Assembly (NCBI GenBank): GCA_050084985.1
Contig: JBITNC010000001.1
Coordinates: 26,908,001 to 26,972,000, forward strand
Reading direction: 5' to 3'
DNA length: 64,000 bases
Origin: Nageia nagi
Taxonomy: Eukaryota > Plantae > Pinophyta
In this document: one piece after another, positions 18,140 through 45,200 of the stretch
Position numbering within the stretch: the first letter of the stretch is position 1
Layout: each line of letters opens with the position of its first letter
Notes under the pieces: generated by a model
The model's database searches: none
What the model was told of the DNA's origin: nothing
Seen by the model: the letters and a program-made list of their open reading frames with translations, nothing else
Program-made: the position numbers and the translations under genes

Positions 18140-21100
18140 GGAGAATTCCACTCAACTCCCCTCTCAACTCCACATGTCTGACCAATCTAGGCATAAAGTT
18201 CTAGATGAGTGCAAAAGCACAGCTTGAAAAGTGTGCGATTGGGCCTAGGGTCAGTTAGCCAATTTTTTTTTTTTGAACACAATTCTTCACTCCATATCTG
18301 GGCACATGGTTTTGGATGAGTGCCTTGAGCACTACCTTAAAAGTATGCGACTAGGTCCCAGGGGTGAATTGAAATGTCTTAGTCAGAAACCTTCCTCCTC
18401 CCTTGGTTGCATGTTTTAGAGTGAGTGCATAATCATGCATGAAAAATGGTGCACCTAAGCTCTGAGATGGGGTATGCAACGTTCCTCAATCTGTTTCCTC
18501 CTTGGTCGCATGTCCAGGAATGAGTGTATAAGCATGCATGAGAAATGGTGCGACTAGGAAATGGAGTGATTTTGAAATGGTGTGTTTGAAATGCTCAATG
18601 GGCTAGGATATTTATAAGTTCGTGTAACTGCCAGGTGTCACTTTCTTATTGGTCCTTCTAAGGGTCAAATAGAAGGCCCACAACAAGGTCGCATGTTTCT
18701 TAAGGAGTGCAAAAGGACATGATGAAAATGATGCGACTAGGAAAGGGGGTGACTTAGTCAAATTCCAAACTTAGTTCAAAGCCTTAGTCCCTGGTTGCAC
18801 CCTTTTGGATGGGTGCCCAAAGCACTTGTCTTAACCCTTGCGCCTAACTGGGCATGCTTCCCAAGGCCTGGGATCTAAAAAAACTTTGAAAAATGTGCAA
18901 GTGGTCCTTGGTTGCATGTCCAGGAAGGAGTGCCTTTTCTTCTTATCTCCCACGCTTTACCCTAGATGAACTTGCGAACTGAAATAAGGGGGCTGACTTC
19001 CCTTTTATAGCCCTCCGTATGGGACACGTGTCACTACAGAATAGGCGTAGATGGAGATCCAATGCATGAGCTTCCACTTGTCAATTGTCAACAAAGTTCA
19101 ACACTTAGCTAATTTTCTTCTCCCCATTCTAGTTAGCTAATTTTCTTCTCCCCATTCTAGTCGCATGGTTTTGGATGAGTGCAAAAGGACACATCAAAAT
19201 CCTTGCGACAGCCTTTGATGCTCGGAAAAATGACTGTCCCCTTCACCTTGGTCGCACCCTTTTGAAGGGGTGCAAAAGGACTCTTCATAATGCATGCGAC
19301 AGCCTTTGGGCTCCAAAAATCTGCTAAATATAGAATCTCTTTGGTCGCACCCTTTCAAAGGAGTGCAAAAAGGACTCATCTCAAAACATTTGACAAGAAG
19401 AAAAATGCTAAGTATAAGTTGTTGGTCGCACCCTTTTGGAGAGGTGCAAAAGGACTCCACAAAATACATGCGACAATTGAATGCAACGAAAAAAATGCTA
19501 AGTATGAGATGATGTTTAACTTGGTCGCACCTTCCCTGGAGGGTGCAAAAGCACTCCCTCAAAATCATGCGACAAGCTGAAAATGAGAGTTTTGCTTTGC
19601 ATTTTCAACAAAAAACGACATATGAGATGTAGATGAGGTTCCTACAACATGGCGGTCTTCAGGGTACCTTCAAATGTAAACATGCAAACGATAAAACCGG
19701 AGAAGGTTGACTAGTTGCATGGTTTGAGACGAGTGCAAAAACACTCAGTGAAAAACATGTGACATGTTGAAAAATGCATGATTTTGACTTCAACTTACCA
19801 TGAAAATGCACTGTAAACATATTCCCAAGACTAGATTGAAAGATATGCATCTTCTTTGACAAACTTTTCATGCAATTCCTCTTTTGTTTCGTGAGGGTCC
19901 TCAAAATGCAAAAAATTTTGGGGGGTGGGGGTGTCGTGTAGGCACAACAGATAGTATTACATCATGGGTATAATATTTAGGGTGGTTGTAGTTATTTGTC
20001 TATCTTTTTGTTAGTGTCATGTGATGTTGCTTTTGCTCAACAAACCATTTCTTGTATAAATATGCTTATACCATAATGACATCATAACTTTTATTGTATT
20101 AATTTAATGTTGTCATCTCATTTCTTGTGATTTTTCCTAAAATTTCAATTGGAAATTTAGTTTCTATTATGATTTATCAGCTGTAATATTCATCAACTTT
20201 ATCATCTTTGTTTGTGCTAATACCTTGTGAAAGTCTTAAGTGACGTTCGCAAATCTACACTTTTTAGCCCAACTTTGGAGCTCTTTGTTTTTGCATCATT
20301 TTCTATTGTAACTAGATTTACTTTTTGCACTCATTGACAACATTATAATTTCTCACCTTGGCCAAACTTAATATTTATTGTTTTCATAGTAGTCAAACTT
20401 TGGGAGTTTGGCGAGTACTCATAAGGAATCTCGCAAAGTTGACCAGACCAATACTGATAGTCAACTTGCAAACTTTATTTGATTTTTAACCAAATTGTGA
20501 GTTTTTGGAGATTTGTTTTTTGCGAGTCATTAGTTTTAACAAGTTATTTGAAAAATCTTATTCTTAATTTTTTATTTTTAAATTTTTGTTGAGTTTTTAG
20601 TGGAGCTTTTCCAAGTTTAAGTTATTAACTAGCCTGTTGGGGGATTTTTCTTTCCTACCCTACAAATAGGCAAATGACTTGCAAGGCTTGAGAAAGGCAC
20701 CAACAACTAGGTGGAAGGGCGTTACCTCTACCCGCTATGAGGACTGGTTACCTCAAAGGTATCGTGCAATGGATGTGCAAACATTGACTCAAGAGATTGG
20801 CTAGGATGTTTGAAGCTATCACCAACTCAAATAAAATTTGTTAACCAAGGACTCGAAGTGTTCCTATCTCTAGACAAATGGTTGTTTCTCAAACAAACAA
20901 AATAAAATGGGGTTGCGAAGGCCACGAAAAAAAGTGAAAATAAAGAAAAAGTGTGTTCTAGACAATGGTACGTGCATTGAGCACAAGTGCATATGGTCTC
21001 ACTGGCTAGTGCAATGATTAGGATCTACTTCTCTCGAGCTTGTTATAAGTTCCACGCACTCCTTATCCCCTTCACTAGCCAACAACATGAATGGACTAGT

Positions 21101-24100
21101 GCGAGAAGTGTGAAGTAATGACAACGATGGTAAGAGGTAGGTCATGGGTAGGTCTTCAATGGTGGAGTGAAGTTCCTATGCTAAGTGACATAAGAGATTC
21201 ATCCCAAACAACACAAGTCTAACATGCAAACTACAAACTATTGCAAGTCACATTTTACTCAAAGATTACTTCAAAGGGTATTCAACGATTTTTTCATCCA
21301 CCTCAACACAAGGTTTATGAAAATGGTCCAAGCAAACTTAAGCAAAACAAGATAGCAATATTACTCATTCACTCAAGATATACAACAAAGCATTCACAAC
21401 ATGTTCATAGTTCCAACAATGAGAGCATTCATCATTCATTTACTTGAGATAATACCACATTCACAAATGGATCAACTTGTTTATTTAAAAATAGTAGTTA
21501 AGTTTTGACAAGTGCAAAATGTCTAATCCTCTAACAAATGAACCCAAATTGGCTATGAATAGTTTTTCAGCAACACAAAGTGTTGCCCTAACCCTAATTG
21601 CGTTTTTCGAGGAAAACATGAGGTCCAATAATAAAGCGCCACATGGTGTTACAAGATATCTTCCAAACTTGTGGGAGGAAATCCTCATCCGTTACAAGTT
21701 TGAGAATAAAATAATAATTAAAATTTTTCTACTAAAAATAAAATGTTTTTGCTAAAAAAATAAAATAAAATAAAACGACTGACAATGGTGGCTTTAAGGT
21801 CGCAACTCGATCTTCGAGACCCTTGTCCAGGAATTTGGCCATAAACTCCAAACCATGAACCATCTCAGAGGTCTTCCTAAAGTTCTTTATCATGCAACTG
21901 TGAACCTTGCAGATGATCTTATCCATTTCCATCTTCCAAGCATGCACCCTCATCATGTGGCTGGCATGGCTTTCAGTCTAATATGCATGGATGTCCTCTG
22001 TCATTGACAAGCTTTGGAGTAGATGTTTCACTTCGGCTACCACTTCGTTTGATTCTTTGATGGTGGTGTTTTCCTCAAGGAACTTGACTTCATATTCCAT
22101 CTGCTCCAACCTTGAGTTCGCCTTGTCGTTAATCTTCTTGACTTCCTTGCTCACTTCTTGAAAGCGAGTAGTCCTCTGTTGTACCACCCCCAAGTAGAAC
22201 CAATAATCATCGTAGAAACTAGCATCTTTCAGTCTCTGATTTCGAGTCATCTAAAAGTTCTCAACAATAGGTCTCCAAGACTCTAACCTCTTGAGGAAAT
22301 CCACTTTGTTCATCACAGTCCCCTTCAGCTTGTCCTCTTCGATGGAGATCTTTTGCAAGGCCTCCACAAACTGTGCTAGCACTACTAGTACTTTTTCAAT
22401 CAACTATTCTTTGATGACCACCAACCTCTCATTTAGCGATTTCAACATCTTGAGCTCTTAGGGGGGCACCTTTATGGATTCTATCTCTCGTGTCAATCTC
22501 CTCTGGGAAGCTAACTCCTTTTTTGGGCTCTTGATTTCTTTCTCCTTTTTCATCCCATCCTTGGTGATTGCATTCGCATTGGCTATGATAGAGTGCTTCC
22601 TAACCACAATTTTGATAGGGCCTATGTTGATGATTTGGTTAATTTGCTTAAGATCTTCAGGCATTTGTGGGTTAGCCTTGTTTGTGTACCCGGTCTTGAT
22701 ATGAATTGCATCACTGGTCATTAGCTCTCTTCTACTTGGTCATTAGCTTCAACATCTCCAAACTCCTCTCCGACATCCATGTTGAAAATGTCAAGGCACT
22801 CGTCTATATCAACACCCCACTCATCATTTAGTGGTGGTTGGTGGGTTTCAACAATTGTTTCATGGTTGATTGTGACATTTGTCCTTTGTTTCTTTGGTGG
22901 TCTTATCTCTTCATTACCATTCTCTTCATCACTCGCTTCGGATGACTGTGATTGTGAAGTTATCTTCAGCTGTGGCCTTCTGGGAATTGACTTAGAGACT
23001 GGGCTCTTCCCTCTTCTGCTAGATGTGGAAGGATTCAAAGAAGCGAACTTTTATACTACCTCCAGAATTGCAAAGACTGTACCTTATGACCATCTGGAAT
23101 TTGAATAGGGTGACCTTGGGTTTCTCCTTGTTCACCACGTTCTTCTCGATCATCCTCTTGGCTATCTTTTGGTTCATACATGTCATTAGAGGATGTGGAC
23201 CTTGATGGTGGAATGACTGTAGATGGGCATTAGATTGGCTCTCTAGGGGGTTTTTGTGGAGGCAATGGATCCTTCTCCCTATTCCTTACACACCTCACTA
23301 CCTTTTCTGCCGCCACGTCTTCCAATTCTCTCAGATCATGCTCATCCATGGTCTCCCTTACTTGCTCGACCATTGTCTTAATTGGGTTCTTTCCATGCAT
23401 CGAAGCATATTGACCAACAAGTTCTTCAATTATCAAGGGGAACTGTGTGACTCTAGATGTAGACCCTTGTGGTCTCTTCCCCTTGGCATGTGACAACCTT
23501 TTGTCAATAGTAGCTTCCATTGTCCTTTGCTGCTTCTTGGCCTCTTCTTGCAATTTGGCACGAATCTTCTTCATCTCCACCTTGTTGCTCACATTCCTAA
23601 ACAACTTATCTCCAAGTGGTTTATGCTTATAAGCTATTGTGCCTGCACAACACCCCCCAAAATTTTTGCATTTTGAGGACCCTCAAAATTAAAGAATAAT
23701 GCACGGAACTAAACATTTGTCTAAGGGAGTGTATGCATTCTGTTCTAGCTTCGGGAAACATGTTAAACCTGCACTTTCATGGTCACATCAAGTCAAAACC
23801 ATGCATTTTTCCTCCATCGCATGCTTTCAAGTGAGTGCTTTTGCACACCCCTTAAACGGTGTGATCAACCTCATACTGCACTTTCACGCTTATCACTTGC
23901 ATTTTCAGTCTTAAAATTGCTCTTTTAGGGTCCCTCATGTTGTAGAAGCTCATCTCTCCCTCATTGCATTTCATGTTCAAGGTCATTTTGGTCAAAAATG
24001 CAAGGCAAAAATTGTGTTTTCAGCTTGTCGCATGTTTTTCTATGGCAAAGCTTGTCGTGTGTTTTCAGGTGAGTCCTTTTGCACCCACTCAAAAAGGTGC

Positions 24101-25192
24101 GACCAGGATTGGAACCTCATACTTAGCATTTTTCTATGGCAAAGCTTGTCGTGTGTTTTCAGGTGAGTGCTTTTGCACCCACTCAAAATGGTGCAACCAA
24201 GGAGAAGTCATTTATACTTAGTCATTTTTGAGGCCATCAAAGCCTGTCACATGCTTTTAAACGAGTGCTTTTGCACCCCACCCAATCCATGCGACCAGAT
24301 TCATGAGGTGAAAACTTTGGCTAAGTGTCGGGCTCAGATTGTTGACAAGTGGAAATACATGCACTCGACCCCCTCTTGCACCTATCAGTTTGCAAATTTG
24401 TCTGGAGCATTGCATGGAGCCAAGGGAGAAAAGCACTTCCTCCAAAACGTGCAACTTGTGTCAAAACAACATTTTTCAAGTCTAACATTTTTCAAGTCTT
24501 TTTGGGATTTCTAGTCTTGGGAAGTGTGCCATACCCCAGGTGCGAGGATCAAGGTGCCTGCTTTTGCACCCTTTCCAAACTGTGCGACCAAGGATTGAGC
24601 TTTAGTGTGGACTTGAAAATTTGGCTAAGTGTTTAAGGGCTTAGTCACATGCTTTTCATCATATGCTTTTGCACCCCTTTAAAACCATGCGCCCCTGTTT
24701 TGGCTCCACCATTTGACCCCTAGTTTGACCAACCCAGAGGTGACACGTGGTAGCGTAGAAAGTTATAAATATCACGCCACCCCTTGTTCATTTTTGCCAC
24801 TTCATCTTAGATTCTTCACCTTTCCCTAGTCAGACCAATTCCATCACATGCTTTTGCACTCATCCGAAACAGTGCGCCAAGGAGAAACAAAGAGACTAGT
24901 GGGACGTTGTGCATCCAGATAGCCTGTTTTGGCTAAGGCATTCAGTAAGGTCCCAGGATCAAGGCTCATGCTTTTAGACACATGCTTTTTCACCCATCCA
25001 AATCCATGTGCCCAGGTGTGAGATGAAAGAATAAAGCTCTAAAATTTGACTAAGTTACCCTAGCCCAGTCGCATACTTCTCAAGCTGTGCTCAAGCATCC
25101 ATTCAAGACTGTGTGCCCAAGATTTCAAGCATCCTTCACAATGACTAGGCTTGTTCTTAGGTCCTTCTGGGGGCACTATTAGATAACTGTGC

Positions 25193-28100
25193 ATGGCTTC
25201 CACTATCAGACCACCTCCATTAAGGGCTAGGAAAATTCAAGGGCAGCTATTTGAGAGACATGTAACCAAGAGCTAGATGACCCGGCTTTCGAAAGACAGC
25301 CTAATTGAATTTCAAGAGAGGGAGAGACTAGAGCTCCTTGAAGCCAAATTCAAGGGGAGATACATTTTTGTTGGTGATACAGATTGGGGAAACTTGGACC
25401 CCATTCAGACATTAGCCTCCACATCCTCCATCAGTAAGGAGGACTTATCAGAAGAGCTCATCCACACATGTGGCTTGTTCAATGCCACTATGATGCCTTT
25501 TGCAGTACCTTTTCTTGACTTGTGCTACGAAGTATCCAGGAAGTGTGAGTATGACAAGAGAGTCCTATAGGACACAGAGGGAAATGTAATCATGGATTTC
25601 TCCCTCGCCGTAATTGAAGCAACCTTTGGATGGAGAAGATATGGGGACAATTACACATTGACATACTCTGAAGAATTCCATAGCCCGGCTTGGGGATTGC
25701 ATTTGGCCTTGGTTGTTGGAAGATTACCAAAATCTTCAAGGTCAAAGGTTGATCAGCGCTCGTAGAGAAGAGTTCTTACCTGTTGTAGCCAAGCTGATCA
25801 CTCTCTTGTCGAGGGTTACTGGTTAGGAGAATGATACTAAATACAAGAGGGAATTCACGGGCTTCATTGCAGTTATTAGCTCGAGAAGGGCTATCCAATG
25901 GGCTAGGGTAATCAGTGATGCCCTACGCCATCAGTTAGCCTATTTTGGTTCTTTGAAGAGATTCTATATGAAATCTTATCTTGTATACTTGTTATTGCAT
26001 GGCAAGGTCAGATCCAGCGAGTTGGTTGACGAGAGATATTTGGGACAAAAGAACACCCCCGTGTGGTGAACTTATCCAAAGTGGTGGTACTAGAACAAGT
26101 TCCAACATTTTTGTGAGAGGAATGATCATTGGGAGTACGATATCTACAAAGATATCAAAGGGGAGTTCGTGGTAAAAAGGATTTCTGATGCAGCTGTTCA
26201 AGCTATCAGTGTACATGCAAATTTCTTCCTGCAGAACGTTGAGCATACTTTCATCAAAGTGTATGGCTCAGAGGAGCGACCCCTACTCTTGCCAAGATAT
26301 GCCAATGATAGGTTGATCCTCATGGAGTTTGCTAGGCAGATCTTGTTCCTGAAAGAGAAAGTCTAGAAGAAGAACGCGACCATCAACATGCCAACCTCTA
26401 TTGCAAGATGTGTTAAACGTGGGTTGAGGCAGCCAGTATGAAGGAGCTGCAGCAATATGCCTTTTCCAAGGACGCGGTTGTGAGAACTATGATCCTAGGG
26501 GCATAATTGTGCATTTCTACAACATTGCATTCCACAAACCTATTGCGTTTCCACATAAGTCTTTGGGGAATGTGGAGAAGTACTAGAACGTCTAGGATGA
26601 GGAGGAGATTTTGAGCATAGATACTCTTCTGAGCAAGAAAAAGGCTCCCCTTCAAGCAGAAAAACCACCTCAGAGACCTTGAACCACAAAGCCCAAATCT
26701 AAGGAGGTCTCTCTCAGGATCAGGTTGTCTCCTCCTGCTCGTACTGCATCTCTACCAGGTTAGATGTCTTTGGTTTCTGTTGGAAAAATGCAAGAGGTCC
26801 TAAGGGAACACATTTCGGGCCCTAGCAAGCGCAACGTAGTAATAGGTGTCTCGGGATCAGGTTGTCTCCTTATCTTGCTCGTACTGCATCTCTACCAAGT
26901 TAGACATCTTTGCCTCCTGTTGGAAAGAAGCAAGAGGTCCTAAGGGAATACATGCCGTGCCCTAGCAAGCGCAATGTAGTAATGTTTGATCTCAAGGATG
27001 CTGACTATCACGCTCTTCCGTCAGATGTGCTAGATGATGTAGTGGATGAGGCTTGTGCCAGTGATTCACCCACGGAGGCGGTCCCTTCTATACTCACTCA
27101 TTCTCCTGGATGTAGGGAGAAAGTTACCCCATTACAACCAAGTTCTAGTTCTAGTCTAGTTCTAAATGCTCCACTTTCTCCTCCGATGAAGAGACTGATC
27201 AAGAGCCCGACCATACAACAATAGATTCTGAAGAAGAATTAGAAAGTCGTGGTGTAAGAGAAGAAGAGGAAGAGGAAGATGATGCTACCGTTGTCCTTGA
27301 GTAAGAAGATGTAGCTATAGGTGCCTCCACACTTGATGAGATGGAGATTGAAACTCTCCCGGATGACAGTGAGATAGTGGATGTTGGAACATATGATGAT
27401 GACGTCCAGATTGTTGGAGAAAAGTGTGCTAGAGAGGTAGGTGCCTCCAAATCCTCTCCTGCTGAGCATAGGACAAAGTCCCCTTCCTCTTTGCATAAAT
27501 CCTCCACAAAGAGGACGACCCATGAGAGATCTCCCTAGCCATGGAACAAAAGCATATTTATGGGCGGTAATGGAGGAGATGAAGAAGATGAAGGAGAGAC
27601 CGAGGAACAAAAGAAGAAGAGAAGGTAGGAAGAGCACCAAGGCAAGGAGATCACCCTTATTCAGACCGGTCCAACGAAAGAGATTAAGAAGATCGACAAA
27701 GGACGATTGTTGGTTCAGAGATTCCCTCCCTAGTCAACAACCGTTGAGCATCCAGATCTTGAACTAGATGCTTGCCTAAGAGCCCTTAGTGTGAGTACAG
27801 CTCATGATGAAGATATAGACTAGGATCTGCGTTCTGAAGATGAGGAAGAGGGGCTTTTGGATGGTGAGAAGATTCGAAGGGTTGACACGTTTGTCTCCTC
27901 CGCCTGAAAGGAAATCTCCATTAGCCATTGCTATTTGAAGGAGAAACATCCTCAGAGAGCAGAAGACTATCATTGAGACATTCAAGATGCCCGTGAAATT
28001 AGGATTAACAACTCGTAATCATATTGTCACTCAAAATGCTGCAGTCATGGAGCAGGAGGGGTATGAAGCCAAAAAGGAGGTGAAGAGGTTGAAAAGGGAA

Positions 28101-28858
28101 CTCATGGCTAGTAGGAAAATCATCAAGGAGTTCCAAAAAATCAGTACCACCCCTTTAGATTTGTAGAAGCAAACCTCCTTCCATGAAGGATGGAAGTGAC
28201 GAAGGAGCAGCTGAAGAAGGAAATGATGGAGGCTATTGAGAGATTGTCTTCTCGGATCCACAAACTCCTTGCTGAAGACGTGGAAATCAGGGAGCTCAAG
28301 ATGCAAATCTCAGTACATCTTAGCACTATGAATAGCCATCTTCCCAACGTCTCCCATATGGAACATGTTTACGTTGACAGTCCTGAGAAGCTAGTCTACT
28401 GCCACGAGTTCACATACCAACATGATTGGTTGAACCATGCACTTGAAAAGTGCAACATAGCCTTGAAAATCAAAATCCCCTTGAGAAAGGAGGTCGAGGA
28501 ACAAATGAGTGAATATGTTTATCGACTCAAGTTCCAAGGGGAGGACAACAATGTGAGAAAGAAGGCAGTATTGGCAGAGGCTCAAAATCTGATATAGGAG
28601 CATCTTGATGTCAATGATCTTAGCTTGCTGAAGACAGGGCATCCCATCGTCCATGAGAGGCGGATGGTCATTTGGAGACACCAAATGTAGGTTACATCGA
28701 ATAAGATAGATGATTATTTTCGGTAGGATGGTAGCACCGTTGATTTGATTTTCAGGGGCGTACGAAAGACTGTGGCGTTCTTGGAGGAGACCATTGAGTC
28801 GTATGGTCTCACCAACGAGGAGTGGAACTCCATCAGTATCGGATCAGATCTGGCCTAG
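25193..28858 (+). pseudogene. Decayed accessory ORF of unit B (homolog of the A ORF)
   Basis: MASTIRPPPLRARKIQ ... YGLTNEEWNSISIGSDLA*. Contains KVYGSEERPLLLPRYANDRLILMEFARQ, a Ser/Glu-rich linker, a C-terminal coiled-coil, and a ~140-bp internal tandem duplication near 26715-26985. Confidence 0.8.
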
Positions 28859-29395
28859 GTCTAATCCACTTGCAGATTATGTTTTCGGTATCTTTTCTTT
28901 TGTTAAATGCATACTTGATGGTGGTTGCTATGTCAGACTCTATTTTATTTGATTTGATTCGTGTAGGGATGACTTTTTGCTCCTGCCAAGTCAAATCAGT
29001 TAGACTCATTTATGGCTCTGACCGGTGCAGGGATGAGGTTTTGCTCCTGCCGGTTCAGATGTCAGACTTTTTTATTACATATTTGATATACTTTTGAGTA
29101 GTTTAGAGGTAGACTAAATGCATGTTAGTTGTGGCATTTATATTTTGTCAGACTTTTAAGTGCCACTTGCATCATGTAAGCAATTTGATTTTGTATCGGT
29201 ATGTGTGTTGCGTGCGTGCATACCATATCGGATTTGATGGCTTTAGGGTAACACTTCTAGTGGCCTATTTATACCCCATACTGGCCATTTAGAAGGGGAT
29301 TTTGCATTTGGGATTTTTTGGACTTGGAATATTGCATGATATTACGCATTATTGCATATGTGAGACTACACTTAAAGGAAATATTGCATATTGAG

Positions 29396-34478: not shown

Positions 34479-34915
34479 TGCTCAGTAGACACTAACTTTG
34501 CAAATTCGTGAGCCAAAGCTTTCTATGAATCCTAGCATTTAGGTATCTTGGTAAGTAGTGCTCTGGGTCTTTTAATAGCTCATTTAGATGCACGATCTTT
34601 CGGGGCGCGGGAAAATCGCCTCACGATAGCAGTATTAATAACTGATTTGGTATTTTACGATCTTTTCGGGAACCCCGAGATTTGAATTCCTGTACCCTTT
34701 TGGAAACTTCAATTCTGCCGGCGCAAAAAGGTGCCAATATTATTAACGCTAGGCTACTAATAAATCACTGACAACTATCACAACTCGAAATAAATGCAAC
34801 ATCACACCATTTACAATATGTATACAAATCAAATTCCTTCTTCCCAACGGTCACTTTCCCGCGCTGGCGGGCTTCAGAAAAACTACTGTGTCCGCTGGTG
34901 TGGAATTCATCAAGT

Positions 34916-36181
34916 TCACGTTCCGGCTTTGTCATCCGCTACGCCAGGCGGAGGAATACCTCCACTCCTCGACAGATACTCTTGGTATTGAAAAATAGGG
35001 CAGGTTGTTTGTTCATGAGCATCATTACAAGCCAAACACAACCCATTAACCGCCCCGGAAGTGGAAGCTTGGTCCACGTCCTCATTCAACACATGTTGAG
35101 CTTTCTCTACAGCAGGGTAGGGATATCTTTTGGCATTATTTTGTCTGGTCAACACGGTAATCTGGTTTGCCATATTTCTACACAAATTCCGGAGTTCCTG
35201 AATTTCTGTAGATGATGCTAATCCTTGGTTCATATTAGGCTGATGTGGAGCTGGTAAGGCCAAGGGAGCTCTAGGAATTGGCAAATTTGACGACCAGGGT
35301 TGAACAGGGGCAGGAATATTAGCCAGAGGCGGAACTGAACTGATTACCGGAGGTCTCAAAATTTGCTGTTGTGTTGTGGTTATTGGGAAATAGGGCATTG
35401 GCATACGGCTTGGTAATTTCCCAACTGCAATAAGGCATGATTCAGCATATACTGCTTGTCTATAGACCTCCGGAAAGGTATTCACTCCGGAATTTTGGAT
35501 TTGCAGAGAGAGATCCGGAGGAAAGGCTCTCAGATAATACATCAAAGCTTGAAACTGCTGAGGCCTGACTGGCATGGGTACTCTTGTCCACGTTCTCTGA
35601 AATCTAATGTTGAAATCCGGGATGTTTTCTTGTTCAAACCTTTTGATTGAAGTAAACTGGGTTAACAAGGAAAAGGGATCCCCTAGTTCATTAAACTCCA
35701 GGATAAAAGGCTCTGCCAGTTGAGCCCAGGTACTGATGGATCCATTAGAAAGGCCCCTGTACCAATCCAGGACCTTTCCTTTGAAAGACTGAGCCAGTAA
35801 TCTCACCATAATATCTTCATGCTGAATATTGTGAATCTTTGCTAGGCCGGCTACATCCACACAGTGCTCATAAGCCGTTTTTTCTGAAGTTGCATCAAAC
35901 TCCGGAAGGGTTTTAAAAACATTTGCTGGGATATCATGTAATACCGCCAGAGCTATGGGTACCCCATTGTCCCATTCCGGATAAATATTCTGAGCTGGAT
36001 TAGCCATTTCAGGAAAGGTATCTCTAGTATGAAGATTGGATGGTTCTGGCTTGATAAAGGATTTTAGGGAGTCGATACTATTCAGAGACTTGGACTTGAT
36101 CAGGGTCTTTCTCCTAGGAGTATCTAACTTCCCAAACTCCGGTTTTTCTTTTGCTGCTCTAGTTTTAGATCTTGTCCACAT
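34916..36181 (-). CDS. gag: Gag (Retrotrans_gag-like) of element C
   Basis: Likely ATG at 36181 (MWTRSKT). LPEFD...EDIMVRLLAQSFKGKVLDWYRGLSNGSISTWAQL...F capsid-like region, and C-terminal CLACNDAHEQTTC zinc-knuckle-like motif. Confidence 0.88.
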   Translation of the reverse strand: MWTRSKTRAAKEKPEFGKLDTPRRKTLIKSKSLNSIDSLKSFIKPEPSNLHTRDTFPEMANPAQNIYPEWDNGVPIALAVLHDIPANVFKTLPEFDATSEKTAYEHCVDVAGLAKIHNIQHEDIMVRLLAQSFKGKVLDWYRGLSNGSISTWAQLAEPFILEFNELGDPFSLLTQFTSIKRFEQENIPDFNIRFQRTWTRVPMPVRPQQFQALMYYLRAFPPDLSLQIQNSGVNTFPEVYRQAVYAESCLIAVGKLPSRMPMPYFPITTTQQQILRPPVISSVPPLANIPAPVQPWSSNLPIPRAPLALPAPHQPNMNQGLASSTEIQELRNLCRNMANQITVLTRQNNAKRYPYPAVEKAQHVLNEDVDQASTSGAVNGLCLACNDAHEQTTCPIFQYQEYLSRSGGIPPPGVADDKAGT

Positions 36182-36271
36182 AAACTCTAGATTGCAAAAG
36201 AAAATGACAGGTTCAAAGCACCTATGATATTCACAAATAATTTGCTTTAATACATACCATGGATGGTGCTT

Positions 36272-36285
36272 CAGCAGAGTCGCCA
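36272..36285 (-). promoter_or_regulatory. Second PBS-like motif, tRNA-Arg(ACG) type
   Basis: TGGCGACTCTGCTG, 14 nt downstream of PBS1. Confidence 0.65.
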
Positions 36286-36299
36286 ATAAATTTCTTCGT

Positions 36300-36317
36300 G
36301 TCCCACCGGGCGTGCCA
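36300..36317 (-). promoter_or_regulatory. PBS1 of element C, complementary to the tRNA-Arg(UCU) 3' end
   Basis: TGGCACGCCCGGTGGGAC, 11 nt inside the 5' LTR. tRNA assignment is from recalled plant tRNA-Arg 3' ends. Confidence 0.8.
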
Positions 36318-36328
36318 AAAAGAAATAC

Positions 36329-37838
36329 TGTTGATTGAGATTGTGTAATATGTGCGCCTGGAAAATCTTAACCAAAGTAGTTCACGAACAGACTGTGGGA
36401 CGCAGCCTGATCTCCGGAGAAGGCCGGTTCCTTATCCATTGGGTAGAGAAAAAGTAACAGGAAAGAGATGAAAAGAGTAGGGAGCGAGAGATTCAAGCAA
36501 AAGGATAGGGTAACAAGAAAGGAAGTAAAAGGATAGGGTAACGAGAGAGGAAGTAAAGGGATAGGGTAACGAGAGAGAAAGCAAAGGGGTAGATCACTAG
36601 TTCAGCGCGGGCTTTCGCAGTGTGCGAAACCTTGGCCTGAATCTAGTGTCGCAGCCACAGAACAAGTTCTCACTCTCTGAATAGCTCCCCAGCTTCTACT
36701 CTACCATGTAGCAGACACAGTTATACTAGCAACCCGCAACTATTACTCAGGAAACAAGCTAAGCTGCCACAATGTAACCAAATTAAGAATAACAATTACG
36801 AGTGCTAGACAAGAAAGGTCAAGATGGTTTCATAGTACCGGACTGAAGCTACAGGTCTTCGAGAACAAATGAAAAGGGCAATACTAGGCTTCCGACCCTT
36901 CTTTCACTTTATTTTCATATACTTATACTGTAGTAACAACAGTTACAAGACTTGCAGAATAGAAACGTTTACAAAAACGGCCTCAAGATTCTGGCCTTCT
37001 TGAATTGACACCACCTACATACGCCACTTGGCCGTCTGTTACAAAGTTGGGCGGATTGCAGACGATACGGTTCCTAGATGATTGTGCTCAGGCATCTTGC
37101 AGACTTACTCTCTTTCGGGATTTCTTAATTCTATGGCTCAGGCTCTTCAATCTTTCTTTGCGGGCCTATTTTCCTCCGGGACTCGGTTTCATTCACCAAT
37201 GTTAATCTTGTTTCTTTCCCTGACGTCAGCTTCATATCTCCGGAATATTTCGCTTTTCGGAGGGACTTGTGTTGATCTCATCGCCTCCGGGGCCGGTTTC
37301 ATTCACTAATGTTAATTTTGCCTTTTCTTGTGACGTCATCCTCGGACTTCCGGAACGATTCGCCTTCAGGGCTCCGGATACTGAATTACTCCTTCCTGAT
37401 GTCATTTCTTCCGGACTCCGGTTTTCCTCAAAACGTTAACTTCATTTTTCGCCATGACGTCAGCTTCATATTTCCGGAATGCATCACTCACTGGCTCCGG
37501 GTACTGGATTACTTCGCGCTGACATCACCTCCTCTGGGCTCCGGTTCCATTCAAAATGTGAACGTTGTTTCCCCGTGACGTCATTATTTCATTTCTCCGG
37601 AATGCTTTGTTTCCCGGAGAACTTATGCTGACTTTATCTTTTCCGGAACTTGGTTTTCACCCAAAAAATAATTATCTTATCCTCCGCACGTCTCCACTTT
37701 ATTCCGGAAAACTTTACTCTAACTCCGGGTTGCTTTATCTGCTCCGGAAAAACTCCCGGAGATCTTCGAATGAATCCGTAGAGGCAGGTAGAGTACACCG
37801 TGGCTTTACTTCAAGGATTTATTATGGAGGAATCTACA
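36329..37838 (-). repeat. 5' LTR of element C (1510 bp)
   Basis: Differs from the other LTR by one 1-bp indel and two substitutions that I could spot. The LTR-internal ORF translations in the track are identical apart from one D/N change. Confidence 0.97.
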
Positions 37839-39142
37839 TTGAGGATCCTGCATTTTTTGGGATGCTAGCTACGAGCTTTTGTGTGTGTAAGAATTTGAGT
37901 TGTTGCATCTGTTATAACTGAGGTTTACTGTATTCCATATGAATGCAACAAGGTTTTTTCTACATATGTTGGGGTTGTTGCGTCCTTAAGTATTTACATT
38001 CTGTTGCATAGAGGTTCGCTGCATAAGGGGGTCTATGCATGTTCATCATTGAATATCATTATGAATGTGTTTCTTTTGAGGAATGAGATTATAAAGCTAA
38101 TACTATGAAGGATGTCATTTGTGGGATCATGCATATATGAATAACTTTCTCCCCTTGGAGTTGCATATCGAATATTCATTGAAGTGGTTTGAGGTTTTTC
38201 TTTGCATGGTTTGCACATAAGTAGATGTATTCTAAGGCTCATAGCTTGTCTTTATATCATTCGGTTAGGTTCTTGCACTTACACCTTCACTTCATTTATT
38301 TTCCCCACCGAATCTTTCACCAAGACCCTACAGCTTCCTGCTCTCGTCTGGTAGTGATTTGAGCATATTTTGCTATTTGTTGCCCGACTTGATAGTGAGT
38401 ACATTGACCTTAATGAATCTGAAGATGACTTGTCGAGACACTGCATCACTAGTGATGCCTTCATGAGTTCATACTTCCTTGTATTCCTTTGCATTTATCT
38501 CTGTGTTTTTTCCCTGTATTTGTGATCTTTCTTCACTTTCATTCACATATTTAGTCTTTCCTTGTTGTGGAAAGGAGCTCCGACGTTGTATTTCCCTTGT
38601 ATACGGTTAACAACATGCGTCTTTGACTATTGTGCCTTCAAGACCATATTCCATGTGAGCACTTGGGGTAACTAGTCCTTTCAGGCAGAAACAAGTAATG
38701 TTGTTTCCTCAAAGTCTTGTGCATGTTTTGGGGTCTTGTGCATGTTTTTGGCTAGGAAAGAAAAACATACCAACATAAGCTCTCTTGCGCTCCTTCAATA
38801 TCATCGTCTCTATAGAGGGGTAGAAGTTACTACATGGAGCATTGATAAGAGCATTCCCGTTCAAGCCATGATGCTCTTCAAGCATCCAATCTCCGATTGT
38901 GATCGTGGCCCTGCTAGTGGACTGATAATGAACTAGTGACTCCACTTCACTGTATTCAAAGTTCCCTTCCCCTGTCCATTGGAATGCTTTCTTGATTGCC
39001 TCAGGATTGAAATACATAAGAACTCTTTTGATGTCCCTTAGCACTCTCTCACCTTTCTTCCAATGCTGGCTCACTTCAATGCATAGTTTTGGGAAAGGGA
39101 TTGCGAAAGGGAGAAGTGGGGATTTGGCGAGATTGGAGAACT

Positions 39143-42100
39143 TGTTGTGACCTACACAACTCGCCCCAAAATTTCACAATTTTGGGGACCCTTCGTAACT
39201 TACACACTGCCTAGCACCTAGTCGGTACAACCTCCCTTTGTCCCCAGTTGACTCAAAATCATGCCTAGCACCCTAGAACCTAAGTGTATTCATCTGCCCA
39301 ATCTTGGTCGTGTCATGTTGAAGAGTTAAAATCCTTGAAAAATGGCTAGGTCTAGGGAATCTAAGTTGAGTCTAGGTGAAACTGAGAAACTTGAGTTGAG
39401 TCGAAACCAAGCGAGTCGGATCTGGGCCAATCGTAGGCTTGGCGCATGCTCCAGGAAGACAAATTTTTTTCTTTTTGGGACGTGCGTTGGGGCCAAGAAG
39501 ATGCCAATTTCAAGATCAAGTCTGGAATGACAAATTAAGTCACTCTTGGACCTGGCGCATGCCATGAGAAGGCAAAATCTTGTCTTTCTGGGGCATGCGC
39601 CAGGCTTAGGAAGACACTTAGGGTAGAATGAAGGCTCGAAAAAAGTAACTTAGTGCATTTCGAGGTTGGTGCATGCCTCAAAAAGACAAAATCTTGTCTT
39701 TTGGGAGCATGCGCCTAAGCTAGGAGGTTGATAGGATGGATTTGAGACCTGGAAGATCGAAGTACAGACACCCAGGTTTATGGCACATGCCTCAAAAAGA
39801 CAAATTCTTCTCTTTTGGTAGCATGTGCCAAGCCTAGGAAGGCATCTAGTTGAGTTGAAACATGAAAATTGGTTAAGGCATGCGCCAAGCCTGAGAAGGC
39901 ACCAGGATGAATGAACTTGAAAACATGACTAAGTCCCAAGAGTAGAAGGCCAAAATGAAGCAAATCTAGCCACCTGCAACCCAATGCATGCCTTAAGAAG
40001 ATAGGATCATGACTTTCTGGATCATGCGCCTAGATTGGAAGAGCTGGAGAGATTGGGGCACATTTCAAAAAGACAAAATCTTATCTTTTGAAACCATGCA
40101 TTAGGCTTGAAGGGGCCTCTGGGTGAGATTGTTGGGAAAAATGAGCAAGCTGGACCCTCGAAAAAACAAAAATCAGGCAAGATCAAGTCTCAGGACGGGC
40201 TTCAAGGTCAAGTTGAATGAGCAAAAGAGCTAGGAAGGCCAACATGGGGAGTGCATTCAACCCCAAGGCTGGCGCATGCTCCAAAAAGACAAAATCTTGT
40301 CTTTTTTGGGCATGCGCCAAGCCTAAAAAAGCTCCTAAACCCCCATGTCTGATCTTGGCCAGATGGGCACGAAATTTCTTGTCTTTTTGGAGCATGTGCC
40401 AAGCCTAAAAAAGCTCCTAAACTCCCATGTCTGATCTTGGCCAGATGAGCACAAAATTTCATGGACACAAATCCCGAGGTCAGCCATCTAGATAGTTGGG
40501 ATGCATTTTCCTCCTTGACGTAGTCGACTAGTGTTTGTTGGAAGCCAGTTTCAGCTATAAACACCAGCCCGGAGAGCTCATTTTCTCAAACTCAAATTCC
40601 AAATCAAACTCCAGAACACCAAAGGAAGAGGATGAGACAGGGAAAGACATGACCATTGATAATGCCTCACCAAGTCGGAAGCACAATGTCGACATCGCAA
40701 CTTTAATAAGGTCACTTCATGAAGGTCCCAACCTAAGAACAAGAGATGAATCTACAAATACTCACTATGTGAGTAGGTTTGTGTTCAAAGTCAACAATGC
40801 ACTTCCTGTCACCAAAGTTTCCTTGAACAAAGATCCAAAGAAGCAACAAGACTAGGAGGTCCATAGTTTGAAAGCTCAAACCAATGAAGTCAAGACCTTG
40901 GGGCAGAATAGATCAAAGATATCGCCAAGCTTGCCAAGGAGCTGTAAGAGAGGCAGGAGAAGCTAAGCCTAGAAGGAGAGACCGCACCTTCCAATCCAGA
41001 TTTGCTTCAAGGCCAGGTAGCTATAGGCGGACAAGGGTACCCTCAACCAGCTGGTGATGAAGTCCTTAGGCGTAGTGTTGTAGAGAAAGAGAAGATGGAC
41101 CAACAGGAATAAACTGAAGAGCCATTGAGGCGGGATGTTGCAAGCACAACAATTAACTTTTATGTTATTTTAGTTTTTTGCAATTTTATTTCAAATTTGG
41201 ATCTCAAAGACTTATTAAATTTTGTACTGCCTTGTATCGGATGAGAATTTACTCCCACAAGTGTTGTAATAAATCTTGTAATGCCATGTGGCACTTTATT
41301 ATTGGACCATTGTTATTTTTCTTGGACCGCGTAATTAGGGTTAGGGCAACATTGATGGTTGCTCCAAAACTATTTATACCCCATTTTGATTCATTTGTAG
41401 GGGAATCAACACTTTCACAATTGGAAAGAACTTTGCGTGCAACACAAAATTTCTCTTAATTGTTAAATGTGATGTATGTGGATGCTTTTGTGATTATATA
41501 CTTGCTCATGTTGAGATAGTGAATATGAATGAATGGTTGATAGTGCTATCAGTGTTTGTTCTATCATTGCTTGGAGTTAATTCAATTTACTTGGTGCATC
41601 TTGTAAACTTCATTGGAGCGGACAAGAGATTGTTTGGATATCTTGCGAAGTAATTGGTTGATGTCTTGTTAATGGTAGTTCATTATTTGCAGTTCAGGCT
41701 TGGTCACCTCGGGATGTCTCACTAATGCCACTCACCATAGGAACTTCACCCAAGTCCTTATGCCCTACCCTTGCTCCATCTTGTCACCTTGCCTTGACTC
41801 CACGTTCCATCGACTATGCTATTCGTGTTGTTGGCTAGTGGATCGGATAGTGGGTGCTTGGCACCTACAACGAGCCTAAGTGAATTGACTTCTGAGGATT
41901 TGTCTCAAGCTCGTGAGTTTGTATGCCCACCATTGCATATGACTTCCCACGATCTTTCCACCATTTTTCTTTGTTTTACTTTTCTTTTATTTTACACCTT
42001 TTTTCGCAGTTTTCGCACCTCTAGATTTCCCTTTTCAACATTTACAGAAACAACCTCGTTGAAATCCAAATACATATTTCAGAGTCCCTTGAATCCACAT

Positions 42101-42282
42101 ATGATATTAATGTTGGTGGCAGCTCTAAACATCTCAGCCGTCTCCTGGGTTATTCTCGCATAACTCGCGAAGCTAACCTTTGGGGTAACCAGTACCCATA
42201 GCGGGAGGGACTAAAGTCCCTTCACCTAAGGTGTTGGTGTTTTTCCCACTACTTCAAAGTAGGAAAGAAAAACACCCCAACA
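39143..42282 (+). mobile_element. Unit E: 3.1-kb TG...CA family member inserted in D
   Basis: TGTTGTGACCTACAC ... GAAAAACACCCCAACA, TSD GAACT/GAACC. Shares the hairpin array and terminal ~1 kb with D; only a short decayed ORF. Confidence 0.8.
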
Positions 42283-45200
42283 GAACCCAACACCCTTATT
42301 CAACACACCCACTTGTGTGCTACGGATCTTTTCTCACATCTGCATGGGGTCGACCTTTTGCCAGTCTATATCTTTGATGGTGGCAAATCTGTTCTTTGAA
42401 AACCTAGCTCCTTGTTGGAAGGGTTCTTGTCTCTCACATATCGGAATGATGTAGTCTTACTTCAACCTCTCAAGCTCCTTAGTACTTTCCTTGGGCACAC
42501 TACTTGAGCTAGTCATCTTGGCTGAATAGATGATGGATGTCTTCGGGGATGATGTGCACACTTCCTTGGATGAGACCTTTTCAACGTTACCCTAGCCTTG
42601 CCTCCAAACCACCTGCGCAAGCCTAAAAAGGTGATGGGATGGACTTGAAACCTTAGATGTGATTTTCTTCTGCAATTTTGGCGCAAAAAATGAAAAGGAG
42701 AATGTATTGAATTTGAAAAAATGGCCCCAATCTCTTCATATTTATAGGCCAAAATTAGGTTTTCTCCAACCCTAATAGACCATGTTCCTGCAAAAATCCA
42801 TCTAAGCCATCAAGATGGTCGACCTAGGGATCTGTGCTGACTTCGGAACCAAGGTATGGTGGCTTGTGATTGGACGTGGGGGTGAAGAGGCGGTTTCAGG
42901 GTGAATGCATGCCCAAAAAACACAAGATTTTGTCTTTTTGGGTCATGTGCTTAACTTGGGAGTGCCTGATCTTTCGTCGTCTGACATCTTGACTCTCCAA
43001 CTTGTCTGATTTGACCTTGTGCTCATCTTCTGACCTCGAATTATTCCATACTTGTCTTTTCTAGGGCTTGGACTTGTCAAATTTCACCTTCGTGCTGCTC
43101 TAGGACTCCTCCCAAGCCAGGCGTATGTTTCAAAAAGACAAAATTTTGTCTTTTAAAAAACGTGTGTCCATCCCTCTTGACATTTCAGTTTGAGCGCATG
43201 CCTCCAAAAGTAAAAAAATTGTCATTTTGAAGCATGCGTTGGGTTCCTTTTGCCCAGTGTATTTGGGTTTCGAGCCTTCTGTGAGTGGGACTTAGCCAAA
43301 TTTCATCATTCATGTCGACCTGGAGTCTCCCTAAGTTAGGCGCATGCTATAGGAAGTCAAGATTTTGTTTTTTTCAACCATGCTCCTGTCCTCTTGATCA
43401 TGCCCGAGCTGGAGGCTAGCTTCAAAGTTCCATGCCTTAGTCAATTTTCATCATGAGCCCAGTCTGGACGTCCTCCTGCCTTGAGCGCATGCTTCCAAAA
43501 AACAAAATTTTGTCTTTTTGAGGGACATGCTCATCCTTACGTTACTTCAACTCTGCCTTTTCACCTTCGAGTCCGTCCCAGGCATCTTCCTGGTTTGAGC
43601 TCATGCTCCCAAAAGACAAGATTTTGTCTTCTTGAGGCATGCGCTTGGCTTAAAATGCATCAAGGTTGCCTCTTTCACTCTTCATTCCGACCCAGGCGGT
43701 TCATGGACCTAGGTGCATGCCCTAGAAAGACAATTTTGTCTTTTTGAGTAATGTGCTGGACCTTGGGGTGACCCAGTTTCGTTCCAATGCTTTGCGTAAA
43801 CTCGACTTATTGTTTCCAAACTTAGTCATTTTTTGAAGAGTTTTAAACTTTGTTTGGACATGGCTTGACTGGGTGAATGACAATACTTTAGGCTCGAGAT
43901 GATAGGCGTGATAACCAGGTAGTTGAAGTGACAAAAACATGACCTTATGTGGACCAGAGTTGCTGAGGGTGCCCAAAATCGTAGGATTTTGGGGTGTGTT
44001 GTCTTAGTGACAACAGAGCCAAAGGCTTGCTGAGTCTGAGTGCATCTACCACAATTGCTATCAATAGGTATGTTGAATTGTTGGCTAGGCCAACATAAAC
44101 CCCATATGTGCAGTGAGTACTTGTTAATATGGGTATCAAACAATTATCCTCAGTAATGCACCATCCAATGAACTTTATCTTCCCTTTGACTTCTAGTGAC
44201 TTGAAGGACAAGCAAGTGTACATGTTATGTTGACCAAAATATCATGCAATGCCTTATGCAGATAACCAGGAACTTCTGCTATCTGGTTGGTTAATCTGGT
44301 TTGTTCATCTACTGGACTAGTCAGTCTGTGCTTGTTTGGATTTAATAATTAATAATAAATTGTTTGCCATCAATGAATTGTTTGTGCTAAAACTTTTATC
44401 GTGCTATGTAACAATGATATCTTTGGTCTAGGGAACTGGGATGTTGGATCCATACAGTGTTTAATTGAGGTTATGTAACTAGTAGTTGGTTGTGGGTTAG
44501 GTTGAGGTTACTTGTGCTGTGACCGTTTGATTATGGAATTTATTTATGACATATATAAATGACTCTACTTGTTTTCGTGGGCTTGGCTGGAAAGAAAAGC
44601 TAGAGTCTGGGATTAATCCTGCCTAACAACCATGAAGGCTAAGAGTACTCATCTCTAGATGTCATTTGATAATGATCTTCCTCTACAATAGACCTTTTGG
44701 GCTTGATTATTGAGTTGTGTTTTATGACTAGTAACTGCTGAATGTAAGAGTTTTTATTATTTTTCCAGTGTATTAAGTGTTGGAAACTTGGCATCATCAA
44801 AGATAAAAATCAGGCATCAAAACTAAGTTTTCTTATACTCTGCTCAGAAACACAGCTCTGCCCACGTTTCATCAGGTCCAAACGCAGCCCCTACCGTGTT
44901 TCTAGGCAAACACGACCACGTTTTTTGAATACAACTGTGTTTCCTGTACGGAAAGCCTTTCTTCAATCTTTTTTGCAGTTACGATTCTGTAGGCATTTTT
45001 TATCGCTTCTAGTATTTGATACTTTGTGAAAATAATGTTTGTAACTCCTAGATAGTGTTTGTAGTCTTTAACTATTTGTAGTAGGGATTTGGTCAAGTTT
45101 CTTTTGTAACAGTCCAAGGTGTAGTGGTCTTTCAATGTTTTCAGTTATGGAGCATCTTATGTTGTAGCTCCAAATTCTATATATTTGTAATTTCGGTTCC

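What the first reader, a model, noticed from the sequence alone, without database searches (positions are those of the whole stretch)
18220..43760. Subfamily-specific palindromic arrays paired with subfamily-specific ORFs: a possible protein-plus-target system
Seen: upstream of the ORF each subfamily has 1-1.5 kb of repeated CG-containing inverted repeats. A (18220-19790) and B (23810-25120) repeat a ~50-bp GTCGCA-ccc..ggTGC-AAAAG-..ATGCGAC unit (example 19425-19474). E (39440-40400) and D (42905-43760) repeat a different near-perfect 48-bp hairpin, GGCGCATGCtCCAAAAAGACAA-aatc-TTGTCTTTTTTGG-GCATGCGCC (40271-40318). F has GCGCAA/TTGCGC motifs (8270-8760) and C has TCCGGA arrays. Position is conserved while the motif changes as the ORF diverges. 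Established: Arabidopsis VANDAL transposons encode VANC proteins that bind family-specific motif arrays and remove silencing. Inference: the accessory protein may be an analogous sequence-specific DNA-binding or anti-silencing factor in retroelements.
Basis: inference. Interest (0 to 1): 0.75.

Follow-up and report, generated by a model that had tools for sequence, protein, structure and literature searches.

The report
Retrotransposon LTRs carrying gene and palindromes
These are the long end-repeats of a plant retrotransposon group; some hold a whole extra gene behind a row of family-specific 48-51-base palindromes, and that gene's protein likely binds the palindromes to keep the element switched on, although no binding has been tested.

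Summary
The arrays are real. A, B, D, E and F are solo-LTR-type units of 3.1-6.8 kb (TG..CA ends, 5-bp target duplications). A related LTR in a public contig is followed by a primer-binding-like site and reverse transcriptase. C is a young gag-only element with 1.5-kb LTRs.
The arrays are dyads of fixed span: 50 bp in A/B, 48 bp in D/E, 51 bp in F. They share their outer hexamers, lie at the LTR's TATA box, and change in step across all units of a subfamily.
The accessory ORF lies inside the LTR in A, B and D. It was under purifying selection (dN/dS about 0.14). It is homologous to C's ORF but matches no Pfam family or solved fold. C's array word TCCGGA is also the most enriched hexamer in C's own coding sequence.
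The claimed pairing is weak: only three lineages carry both array and ORF, E and short relatives keep arrays without an ORF, and linkage alone predicts co-divergence. Best reading: the element's own protein binds the arrays and activates the LTR (0.45). VANC-like anti-silencing is possible (0.25) but untested.

The parts
9196..19949 (-). Unit A: solo-LTR-type unit, about 6.8 kb without the nested Copia element, TG..CA ends, TSD GATAG; holds array, TATA box, broken accessory ORF and 3' LTR segment
18185..19768 (-). Array of A: 11 dyad units of 50-51 bp flanking a TATA box at 18618
10560..18052 (-). Accessory ORF of A, many stops and frameshifts, split by the Copia insertion
11127..15052 (+). 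Copia element inserted in the ORF of A (141-bp LTRs 97% alike; integrase Pfam hits); right end approximate
23635..38775 (+). Unit B: solo-LTR-type unit, about 6.7 kb without C, TSD TAAGC, inserted in D; family copies end sharply at 38775
23811..25122 (+). Array of B: 9 dyad units of 50 bp flanking a TATA box at 24762
25277..28860 (+). Accessory ORF of B (about 1,190 codons, broken), inside the LTR
29396..37838 (-). Element C: young non-autonomous LTR element, TSD TTGAG, LTRs 29396-30907 and 36329-37838 differing at 3 places; gag, no pol
37090..37790 (-). U3 array of the 5' LTR of C (TCCGGA x9, TGACGTCA x4, about 115-bp period); same array at 30150-30850
36303..36319 (-). Primer-binding-site-like word 10 nt after the 5' LTR of C (tRNA identity recalled only)
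   Evidence: sequence
34919..36181 (-). gag of C (Retrotrans_gag E 7.7e-7)
31004..34397 (-). Accessory ORF of C in three overlapping frames (breaks near 33410 and 32770): conserved N-terminal domain, low-complexity linker, helical C-terminal part
20635..44015 (-). Unit D: solo-LTR-type unit, about 5.1 kb in three pieces (44015-42283, 39142-38776, 23634-20635), TSD TAGCC/GAGCC; ORF pieces homologous to those of A, B and C
42899..43765 (-). Array of D: 7 decayed 48-bp dyad units upstream of a TATA box at 42748
39143..42282 (+). Unit E: short (3.1 kb) solo-LTR-type unit without ORF, TSD GAACT/GAACC, inserted in D
39436..40325 (+). Array of E: 7 dyad units of 48 bp (plus a partial 82-bp tandem copy to 40460)
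4756..8993 (-). Unit F: 4.2-kb solo-LTR-type unit, TSD GTATG, three 51-bp dyads at 8282-8474, no ORF remnant found

Best explanation
The arrays are rows of 48-51-bp dyad repeats at the TATA box of Ty3/gypsy-type LTRs, and they are likely binding sites for the element's own accessory protein, which would act on them to keep the LTR promoter active. Shown: the LTR-type ends, the position of arrays and ORF inside one LTR in A, B and D, selection on the ORF, constraint on the dyad blocks, and synchronous mirrored change of the half-site between subfamilies. Inferred: Tat-clade membership, a gymnosperm host, transcription of the ORF from the TATA box inside the array, binding by an oligomer (a symmetric site, and a helical C-terminal part of the protein), and action in trans on short LTRs such as E that keep the array but lack the ORF. 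Because the gene lies inside the LTR, it would survive LTR-LTR recombination as a self-contained cassette. In C the cognate word would be TCCGGA, which is spread over U3 and over the coding sequence.
For: LTR nature: five units with TG..CA ends and 5-bp TSDs. Two more complete 3.0-3.1-kb units with TSDs lie in L062 and L065. In L078 a D/E-type end is followed by a PBS-like word and then an RT N-terminal part.
Real gene: A vs B dN/dS is 0.136 over 394 codons (dS 1.17) and 0.14 over 179 codons; the other two frames give about 1.0; L074 vs L051 gives 0.12. One profile hits C, B, A, D and L074. There are 43 distant representatives at E<=0.001.
Constrained sites: A and B are only about 41% identical at synonymous sites but 80% identical at unit core positions, against 62-63% in spacers and between units (core positions were defined on these same units). 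The A/B dyad has conserved symmetric blocks and non-covarying spacers, which fits a protein site better than a stem.
Synchronous change: in the 48-bp family positions 7-8, 19 and 22 change in both arms of all units of a subfamily at once.
C: TCCGGA occurs 11 times in 4,653 coding bases, against 2.1-2.2 in synonymous shuffles (0 of 500 as high; rank 1 of all hexamers), while CG overall is below expectation (137 vs 161).
Literature: Tat accessory ORFs encode PMD or TRP28 plus a coiled coil (PMC4408406). TRP28 is predicted to bind DNA (PMC11963269). PMD and VANC's DUF1985 are reported as structurally alike (bioRxiv 2024.09.27.615353; PMC13547354).
Against: There is no direct evidence of binding. 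None of 45 family members matches PMD, DUF1985, TRP28 or any DNA-binding family at a meaningful score, and both models are poor (mean pLDDT 58 and 52). Only three lineages carry both parts, and they are physically linked. Six of seven D/E-type LTRs with array and downstream segment lack the ORF, and their half-sites differ among themselves, so the array changed in LTRs that carry no gene. The mirrored changes are about three events, and there is no covariation beyond marginals within arrays. C's array holds four TGACGTCA boxes, a host bZIP-type site (recalled). The hexamer null is imperfect: the Copia control also had an outlier (AACAAA, z 4.5, above its shuffle maximum of 3.7). The motif CpGs are decaying (A/B: 13 of 36 read TG or CA). 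No ORF-bearing long LTR was seen joined to a PBS: 1 of 15 ends in the loci had one and it was a short LTR, and contigs leaving B's end agree only 48-50%.
Confidence: 0.45

Rival explanations
1. The arrays are ordinary LTR enhancer repeats read by host transcription factors and homogenised by slippage and recombination. The accessory protein does another job (particle, RNA or integration step), and the two diverge together only because they are linked.
For: U3 repeats are common, and family-specific tandem arrays of unknown function are known in Retand (PMC11963269). C's array holds TGACGTCA x4. The outer hexamer is shared by A/B, D/E and F, as a site for a conserved host factor would be. Arrays persist and change in ORF-less LTRs. 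The tree of LTR 3' ends mixes ORF-bearing and ORF-less LTRs (4 changes, no clustering).
Against: A 48-51-bp multi-block dyad with lineage-specific span is far longer than usual host sites (established knowledge). The interior blocks are conserved yet differ between lineages. It does not explain TCCGGA enrichment at synonymous sites in C.
Confidence: 0.33
2. The symmetry is structural or mutational. The units act as hairpins or cruciforms in RNA or single-stranded DNA during reverse transcription, or template switching between arms keeps perfecting them without selection for a binder.
For: D/E-type units fold well (mean -16.8 kcal/mol vs -6.6 shuffled). 82.7% of cells are paired, with 49 double-sided changes (0 of 500 shuffles).
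Against: The A/B unit is a poor stem (about 55% complementary; mean -11.3 kcal/mol, and the reverse strand folds better) yet holds the same place. Pairs 9-13 of the 48-mer are often unpaired. Within arrays the arms do not covary.
Confidence: 0.12
3. The protein binds the arrays as a repressor or insulator, limiting the element's own transcription rather than promoting it.
For: Units flank the TATA box in A and B, and one unit in L078 contains the TATA box itself, an operator-like layout.
Against: ORF-less LTRs keep the full array, which is easier to explain if the array brings a benefit. The known analogues (VANC, MAIL1/MAIL2) activate.
Confidence: 0.1

Closest known systems
VANC proteins of VANDAL (Mutator-like) transposons (PMC5735166, PMC10398659; passages read)
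   Same: An accessory gene of a mobile element beside family-specific motif arrays in non-coding DNA; units of an array change together.
   Different: Here an LTR retrotransposon. The unit is a 48-51-bp dyad, against the 8-9-bp motifs of VANC21 and VANC6. No DUF1985/DUF287 match. In C the word is also enriched in coding DNA, whereas the coding-region probes tested for VANC21 lacked its motif. Binding and demethylation are not shown.
Extra ORFs of Tat-clade elements: PMD-CC of Ogre-type and gymnosperm lineage III, TRP28-CC of Retand, eORF-5'F/3'F of TatII (PMC4408406, PMC6317226, PMC11963269; passages and supplement rows read)
   Same: A long accessory ORF with a conserved N-terminal domain, a low-complexity linker and a helical C-terminal part; family-specific repeats nearby; function unknown, DNA binding proposed. 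C's sense ORF downstream of gag fits the eORF-3'F position.
   Different: No Pfam PMD or TRP28 match. In A, B and D the ORF is inside the LTR, not in the internal region. The repeats are dyads at the LTR TATA box, not internal tandem arrays.
MAIL1/MAIN/MAIL2 PMD-C proteins and their M1M/M2M motifs (bioRxiv 2024.09.27.615353; passages read)
   Same: A transposon-related domain paired with a promoter motif, palindromic for MAIL2, that keeps genes active.
   Different: Host genes acting against Polycomb; no homology shown to this protein.
Retroviral genes in or overlapping the LTR: MMTV sag, HIV nef, foamy-virus tas (recalled, not tested)
   Same: A gene within or reaching into the LTR; for tas, an element-encoded activator that binds its own LTR.
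   Different: Animal retroviruses with short genes; here about 3.6 kb of ORF in a 6.7-kb plant LTR, with no homology expected.
Rice Retrosat2/RIRE3/RIRE8 (PMC3485330; passages read)
   Same: LTRs over 3 kb, many solo LTRs, and an orphan extra ORF under selection.
   Different: The passages place ORF0 upstream of gag-pol as a separate ORF and do not place it in the LTR.

Membership tests
LTR retrotransposon LTRs (Ty3/gypsy) | TG..CA termini with a 4-6-bp target-site duplication | tested here: met
   5 of 5 window units and element C, two TSDs with one mismatch and B with a changed first dinucleotide; L062, L065
LTR retrotransposon LTRs (Ty3/gypsy) | LTR followed by a primer-binding site and gag/pol | tested here: met
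   C (gag) and short D/E-type LTR in L078 (RT part); 1 of 15 ends in loci; not seen for any ORF-bearing long LTR
Tat clade (TatII/TatIII) | RT phylogeny within Tat | not tested
   No reference RT set was at hand
Tat clade (TatII/TatIII) | Additional RNase H domain and its position | tested here: inconclusive
   The 90-aa piece between PBS and RT in L078 has no Pfam hit; its likeness to an aRH tail is recalled only
Tat clade (TatII/TatIII) | PBS for tRNA-Asp/Asn (TatII) or tRNA-Arg/His (TatIII) | tested here: inconclusive
   Types from PMC6317226 supplement; assignment of the PBS-like words to Asn (L078) and Arg (C) is recalled; paper search for the words found 0
PMD / TRP28 accessory proteins | Pfam PF10536 or PF04195 match by sequence | tested here: not met
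   0 of 45 members at E<=10;
PMD / TRP28 accessory proteins | Shared fold | tested here: inconclusive
   Low-confidence models; best Z 4.3 (rmsd 4.3, 66 aligned) and 3.1 (rmsd 3.8, 50 aligned); no library of predicted cellular structures was available
VANC anti-silencing system | Encoded by a Mutator-like DNA transposon | tested here: not met
   LTR structure, gag, RT
VANC anti-silencing system | DUF1985 (and DUF287) domain by sequence | tested here: not met
   0 of 45 members
VANC anti-silencing system | Family-specific motif accumulated in non-coding repeats whose units change together | tested here: met
   definition from PMC5735166
VANC anti-silencing system | Protein binds the motif in vitro and in vivo | not testable with these tools
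   needs EMSA, DAP-seq or ChIP
VANC anti-silencing system | Sequence-specific loss of DNA methylation in trans | not testable with these tools
   needs methylomes; motif CpGs in these old copies are decaying
Known structured RNA families | Rfam match at gathering score | tested here: not met
   0 matches in the window

The most novel reading that the evidence does not exclude
A group of plant LTR retrotransposons has its own sequence-specific anti-silencing system, parallel to VANC. An orphan protein family binds family-specific dyads or words, shields them from methylation, and is carried inside the LTR, so that solo LTRs keep a working protector cassette while short ORF-less LTRs exploit it in trans. 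This could help explain how such elements filled giant tree genomes.
Probability: 0.25. Interest if true: 0.85.

Novelty: new variant of a known kind. Interest (0 to 1): 0.58.

Why it matters
The function of the extra ORFs and family-specific repeats of Tat/Ogre/Retand elements is stated as unknown in the papers read (PMC4408406, PMC11963269). Here gene and candidate target sit in one LTR, and the target is a sharply defined dyad with natural variants (50-, 48- and 51-bp types, plus half-site variants within the 48-bp type). This makes the question directly testable by binding assays and methylomes. A long gene inside a plant LTR that survives solo-LTR formation was not found in my 10 paper searches, which cover only an open-access library and match words, not meaning.

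Tried and rejected
No whole genome was held, so a family-wide co-phylogeny could not be run.
Pfam scans of the accessory ORF pieces and relatives gave nothing meaningful. The search for longer homologues scored 7,987 candidates and found none at E<=0.1, which is weak evidence. ESM Atlas returned only unnamed clusters at 0.90-0.91 with low recognition, and 0.76 among named ones. PDB sequence search gave 1 hit at E 0.063. Fold searches gave no match at E<=0.001 and no Z>=5; an unlisted family is not excluded.
Viral contigs: 10 pattern matches, none related to the window, and no protein match.
No RNA holder was listed for C; this says nothing on expression. Laying contigs on B's end showed no shared primer-binding sequence; short overlaps may have hidden it. 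Three look-ups of earlier findings returned nothing. The VANC21 structure paper is not held.
Rejected readings: that the units are DNA transposons with short inverted ends (L078 shows a PBS-like word plus RT); that the ORF is junk (dN/dS); that E is a one-off deletion (two complete relatives of the same size); that all units are RNA hairpins (A/B).
Full report
ANATOMY. The window is a nest of retroelements at about 37-45% GC with low CpG. A scan for shared termini and a self-BLAST resolve six related or nested units. F (4756-8993, minus), A (9196-19949, minus), D (20635-44015, minus), B (23635-38775, plus, inside D) and E (39143-42282, plus, inside D) each begin TGTTGTG (B: TATTGTG), end ..GGAAAGAAAAA..CCAACA, and are flanked by a 5-bp duplication (two with one mismatch). 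Without nested insertions they measure 4.2, 6.8, 5.1, 6.7 and 3.1 kb and have no internal LTR pair. C (29396-37838, minus, inside B) has 1.5-kb LTRs that differ at three places, a gag gene, no pol, and an accessory reading of about 1,130 codons in three frames. A wind-pollinated gymnosperm is my inference from the repeat landscape and from air metagenomes being among the main holders of C.

THE UNITS ARE LTRs. A scan of metagenome contigs for the shared 3' end gave 105 loci, of which 13 are related to the window. They hold 15 such ends. One, in L078, is followed after 5 bases by a primer-binding-like word and, 450 bases on, by the N-terminal part of a reverse transcriptase (37% identity to an RT with Pfam support, E 4e-32). 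The gag further downstream in L078 appears to belong to a second, nested element. L062 and L065 hold complete 3.1- and 3.0-kb units with target duplications. Contigs from public runs cover B's last bases deeply and stop at 38775, with unlike flanks (agreement 0.48-0.50). So the window units are most simply solo LTRs. The gap in this argument: the only end seen with a primer site is a short, ORF-less LTR; no long ORF-bearing LTR was seen in a full element.

THE ARRAYS. The units are dyads with shared outer hexamers and a lineage-specific span: 50 bp (A/B), 48 bp (D/E and five loci), 51 bp (F). Weight matrices find 20 and 14 units in the window, 34 more 48-bp units in L031, L062, L065, L070 and L078, and four weak A/B-like units in L065. 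There are no cross-hits in the window, and nothing above 5.4 bits in 665,626 unrelated bases. In A/B the conserved positions form symmetric blocks (1-6, 10-13, 21-30, 38-41, 45-50) and the spacers neither stay fixed nor covary. In the 48-bp family the arms pair in 82.7% of cells (20 of the 48 units aligned). Three features (positions 7-8, 19, 22) flip in both arms, but by subfamily: nearly all half-sites of an array carry the same variant, and within arrays there is no covariation beyond marginals. This is synchronous turnover of a half-site, a few events in all. In A and B the units surround a TATA box; in L078 one unit contains it. C's U3 is different: a repeat of about 115 bp with TCCGGA and four TGACGTCA boxes. 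Rfam finds nothing.

THE GENE. A profile of C's first frame and 44 public relatives hits pieces in B (E 7e-7, 9e-7), L074 (4e-5), D (0.002) and A (0.003) among 3,684 stretches. Natural proteins P0019 and P0044 run across the junction of C's first two frames, so these are one gene. In A, B and D the gene lies between the array TATA box and a second conserved CTATTTATA box, inside the LTR. A vs B gives dN/dS 0.136, 0.21 and 0.14 in three parts, with dS 1.1-1.3. Other frames give 0.9-1.0. A non-coding control gives 0.50, which shows some bias from picking the best frame. D-type copies are saturated at synonymous sites with pN 0.24-0.31. All window copies are broken. The family has no Pfam, Atlas, PDB-sequence or fold match, and both AlphaFold models are weak. 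Its layout (conserved domain, acidic or Pro/Ser linker with a basic patch, helical C-terminus with weak coiled-coil-type hits) is like the PMD-CC and Tr28-CC proteins of Tat elements (PMC4408406). Local motif likeness to PMD, DUF1985 and PF20167 is my recall and was not shown by any search.

IS THERE A PAIRING? Only A/B, D and C carry both array and gene, and each pair is inherited as one piece, so joint divergence is expected without any interaction. Seven D/E-type LTRs show an array and the downstream segment (D, E, L031, L062, L065, L070, L078); only D has the gene. L036, L051 and L074 have the gene, but their contigs end before the array. On a tree of the segment before the second box, short and long LTRs split weakly (69/94); on a tree of the last 330 bases they are mixed, which suggests recombination. 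Two results do go beyond linkage. First, the unit cores of A and B stayed 80% identical while synonymous sites fell to about 41% (the core was defined on the same units, so this is partly circular). Second, C's U3 word TCCGGA is the top hexamer in C's coding sequence under synonymous shuffling (11 vs 2.1; z 5.1 vs a shuffle maximum of 4.4; gag 6, last frame 4, middle 1, conserved domain 0). It ranks 301st or lower in five control sets. One control set had its own outlier, so the null is not exact. CCGG makes up 18% of CG in C's interior against 0-7% elsewhere, but the other elements are old and decayed. Against lasting protection from methylation, 13 of 36 motif CpGs in A/B and 30 of 86 in the 48-bp family read TG or CA.

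MECHANISM. I commit to an element-encoded activator that binds the dyads at its own LTR promoter and serves ORF-less LTRs in trans (0.45). Rivals are host-factor enhancers plus an unrelated protein role (0.33), structural or mutational symmetry (0.12), and autorepression (0.10). The specific VANC-like version, with demethylation, is the novel case (0.25). It works like VANC in layout and in synchronous motif turnover. It is not a VANC member: the host element differs and there is no DUF1985 match.

LITERATURE SEEN. Passages: PMC6317226 (plus supplement rows for TatII/III), PMC11963269 (first 10,000 characters and passages), bioRxiv 2024.09.27.615353 (its supplements were not seen and may hold the motif sequences and structure comparisons), PMC13547354, PMC13468544, PMC10398659, PMC12859917, PMC4408406, PMC5735166, bioRxiv 10.64898/2026.07.23.736688 (102), PMC5751070, PMC3485330. 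Tanaka et al. 2026 on VANC21 structure was seen only as a citation. Extra ORFs and family-specific repeats in Tat-clade elements are known and unexplained. An anti-silencing protein of a plant LTR element, or a long gene inside a plant LTR, did not appear in the ten searches listed under Why it matters. Reported solo-to-intact ratios in conifers run from about 1:9 to 2.8:1; the excess of solo-type ends here (19 of 20 ends without a primer site) is higher, but short-read assemblies may lose the primer-site junction.

VERDICT. The elements are a new variant of accessory-ORF LTR retrotransposons. The protein-target idea is plausible, has two lines of indirect support, and is untested. Interest 0.58.

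Noticed in passing
window 30908-30927: Where element C should have a polypurine tract, the sense strand has none; instead a second primer-binding-like word lies there in inverted orientation, 3 nt from the LTR, so the sense strand reads like a tRNA 3' end (identity recalled, not tested). Possibly unusual plus-strand priming.
   Followed up: no
window 31004-36181: TCCGGA, the U3 repeat word of C, is the most enriched hexamer in C's coding sequence under synonymous shuffling.
   Followed up: yes
window 10169-10180, 29263-29277, 41368-41382 and ten related loci: A conserved CTATTTATACCCC box about 0.9-1 kb before the LTR end reads as a canonical TATAAATA on the opposite strand; it could drive antisense transcription into the accessory ORF or be the main sense promoter.
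   Followed up: partly
window 38776-38800 / 23610-23634: D's ORF appears to carry an in-frame deletion of roughly 270 codons of the conserved domain that predates the insertion of B (judged by eye against L074).
   Followed up: partly
L078:7683-7740: One 48-bp dyad unit contains the TATA box itself; a similar degenerate unit is at L062:4877.
   Followed up: no
L065:5776-6890: Four weak A/B-like 50-bp dyads, probably a further subfamily.
   Followed up: no
window 29522-29660 and 36454-36592: 28-bp tandem repeat (3.5 copies) near the 3' end of each LTR of C.
   Followed up: no
window 48619-50380: hAT transposase pieces (DUF659, Dimer_Tnp_hAT).
   Followed up: no
window 44778-45243, 47691-47958, 51130-51320: Another decayed LTR-like repeat family flanking an acidic, G-skewed degenerate coding region.
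   Followed up: no
window 1425-2159: 244-codon acidic open frame with no Pfam match.
   Followed up: no
window 3505-3621 and 9063-9179: A 117-bp repeat (87% alike) flanks unit F and the end of A; it may belong to an older element that hosts them.
   Followed up: no
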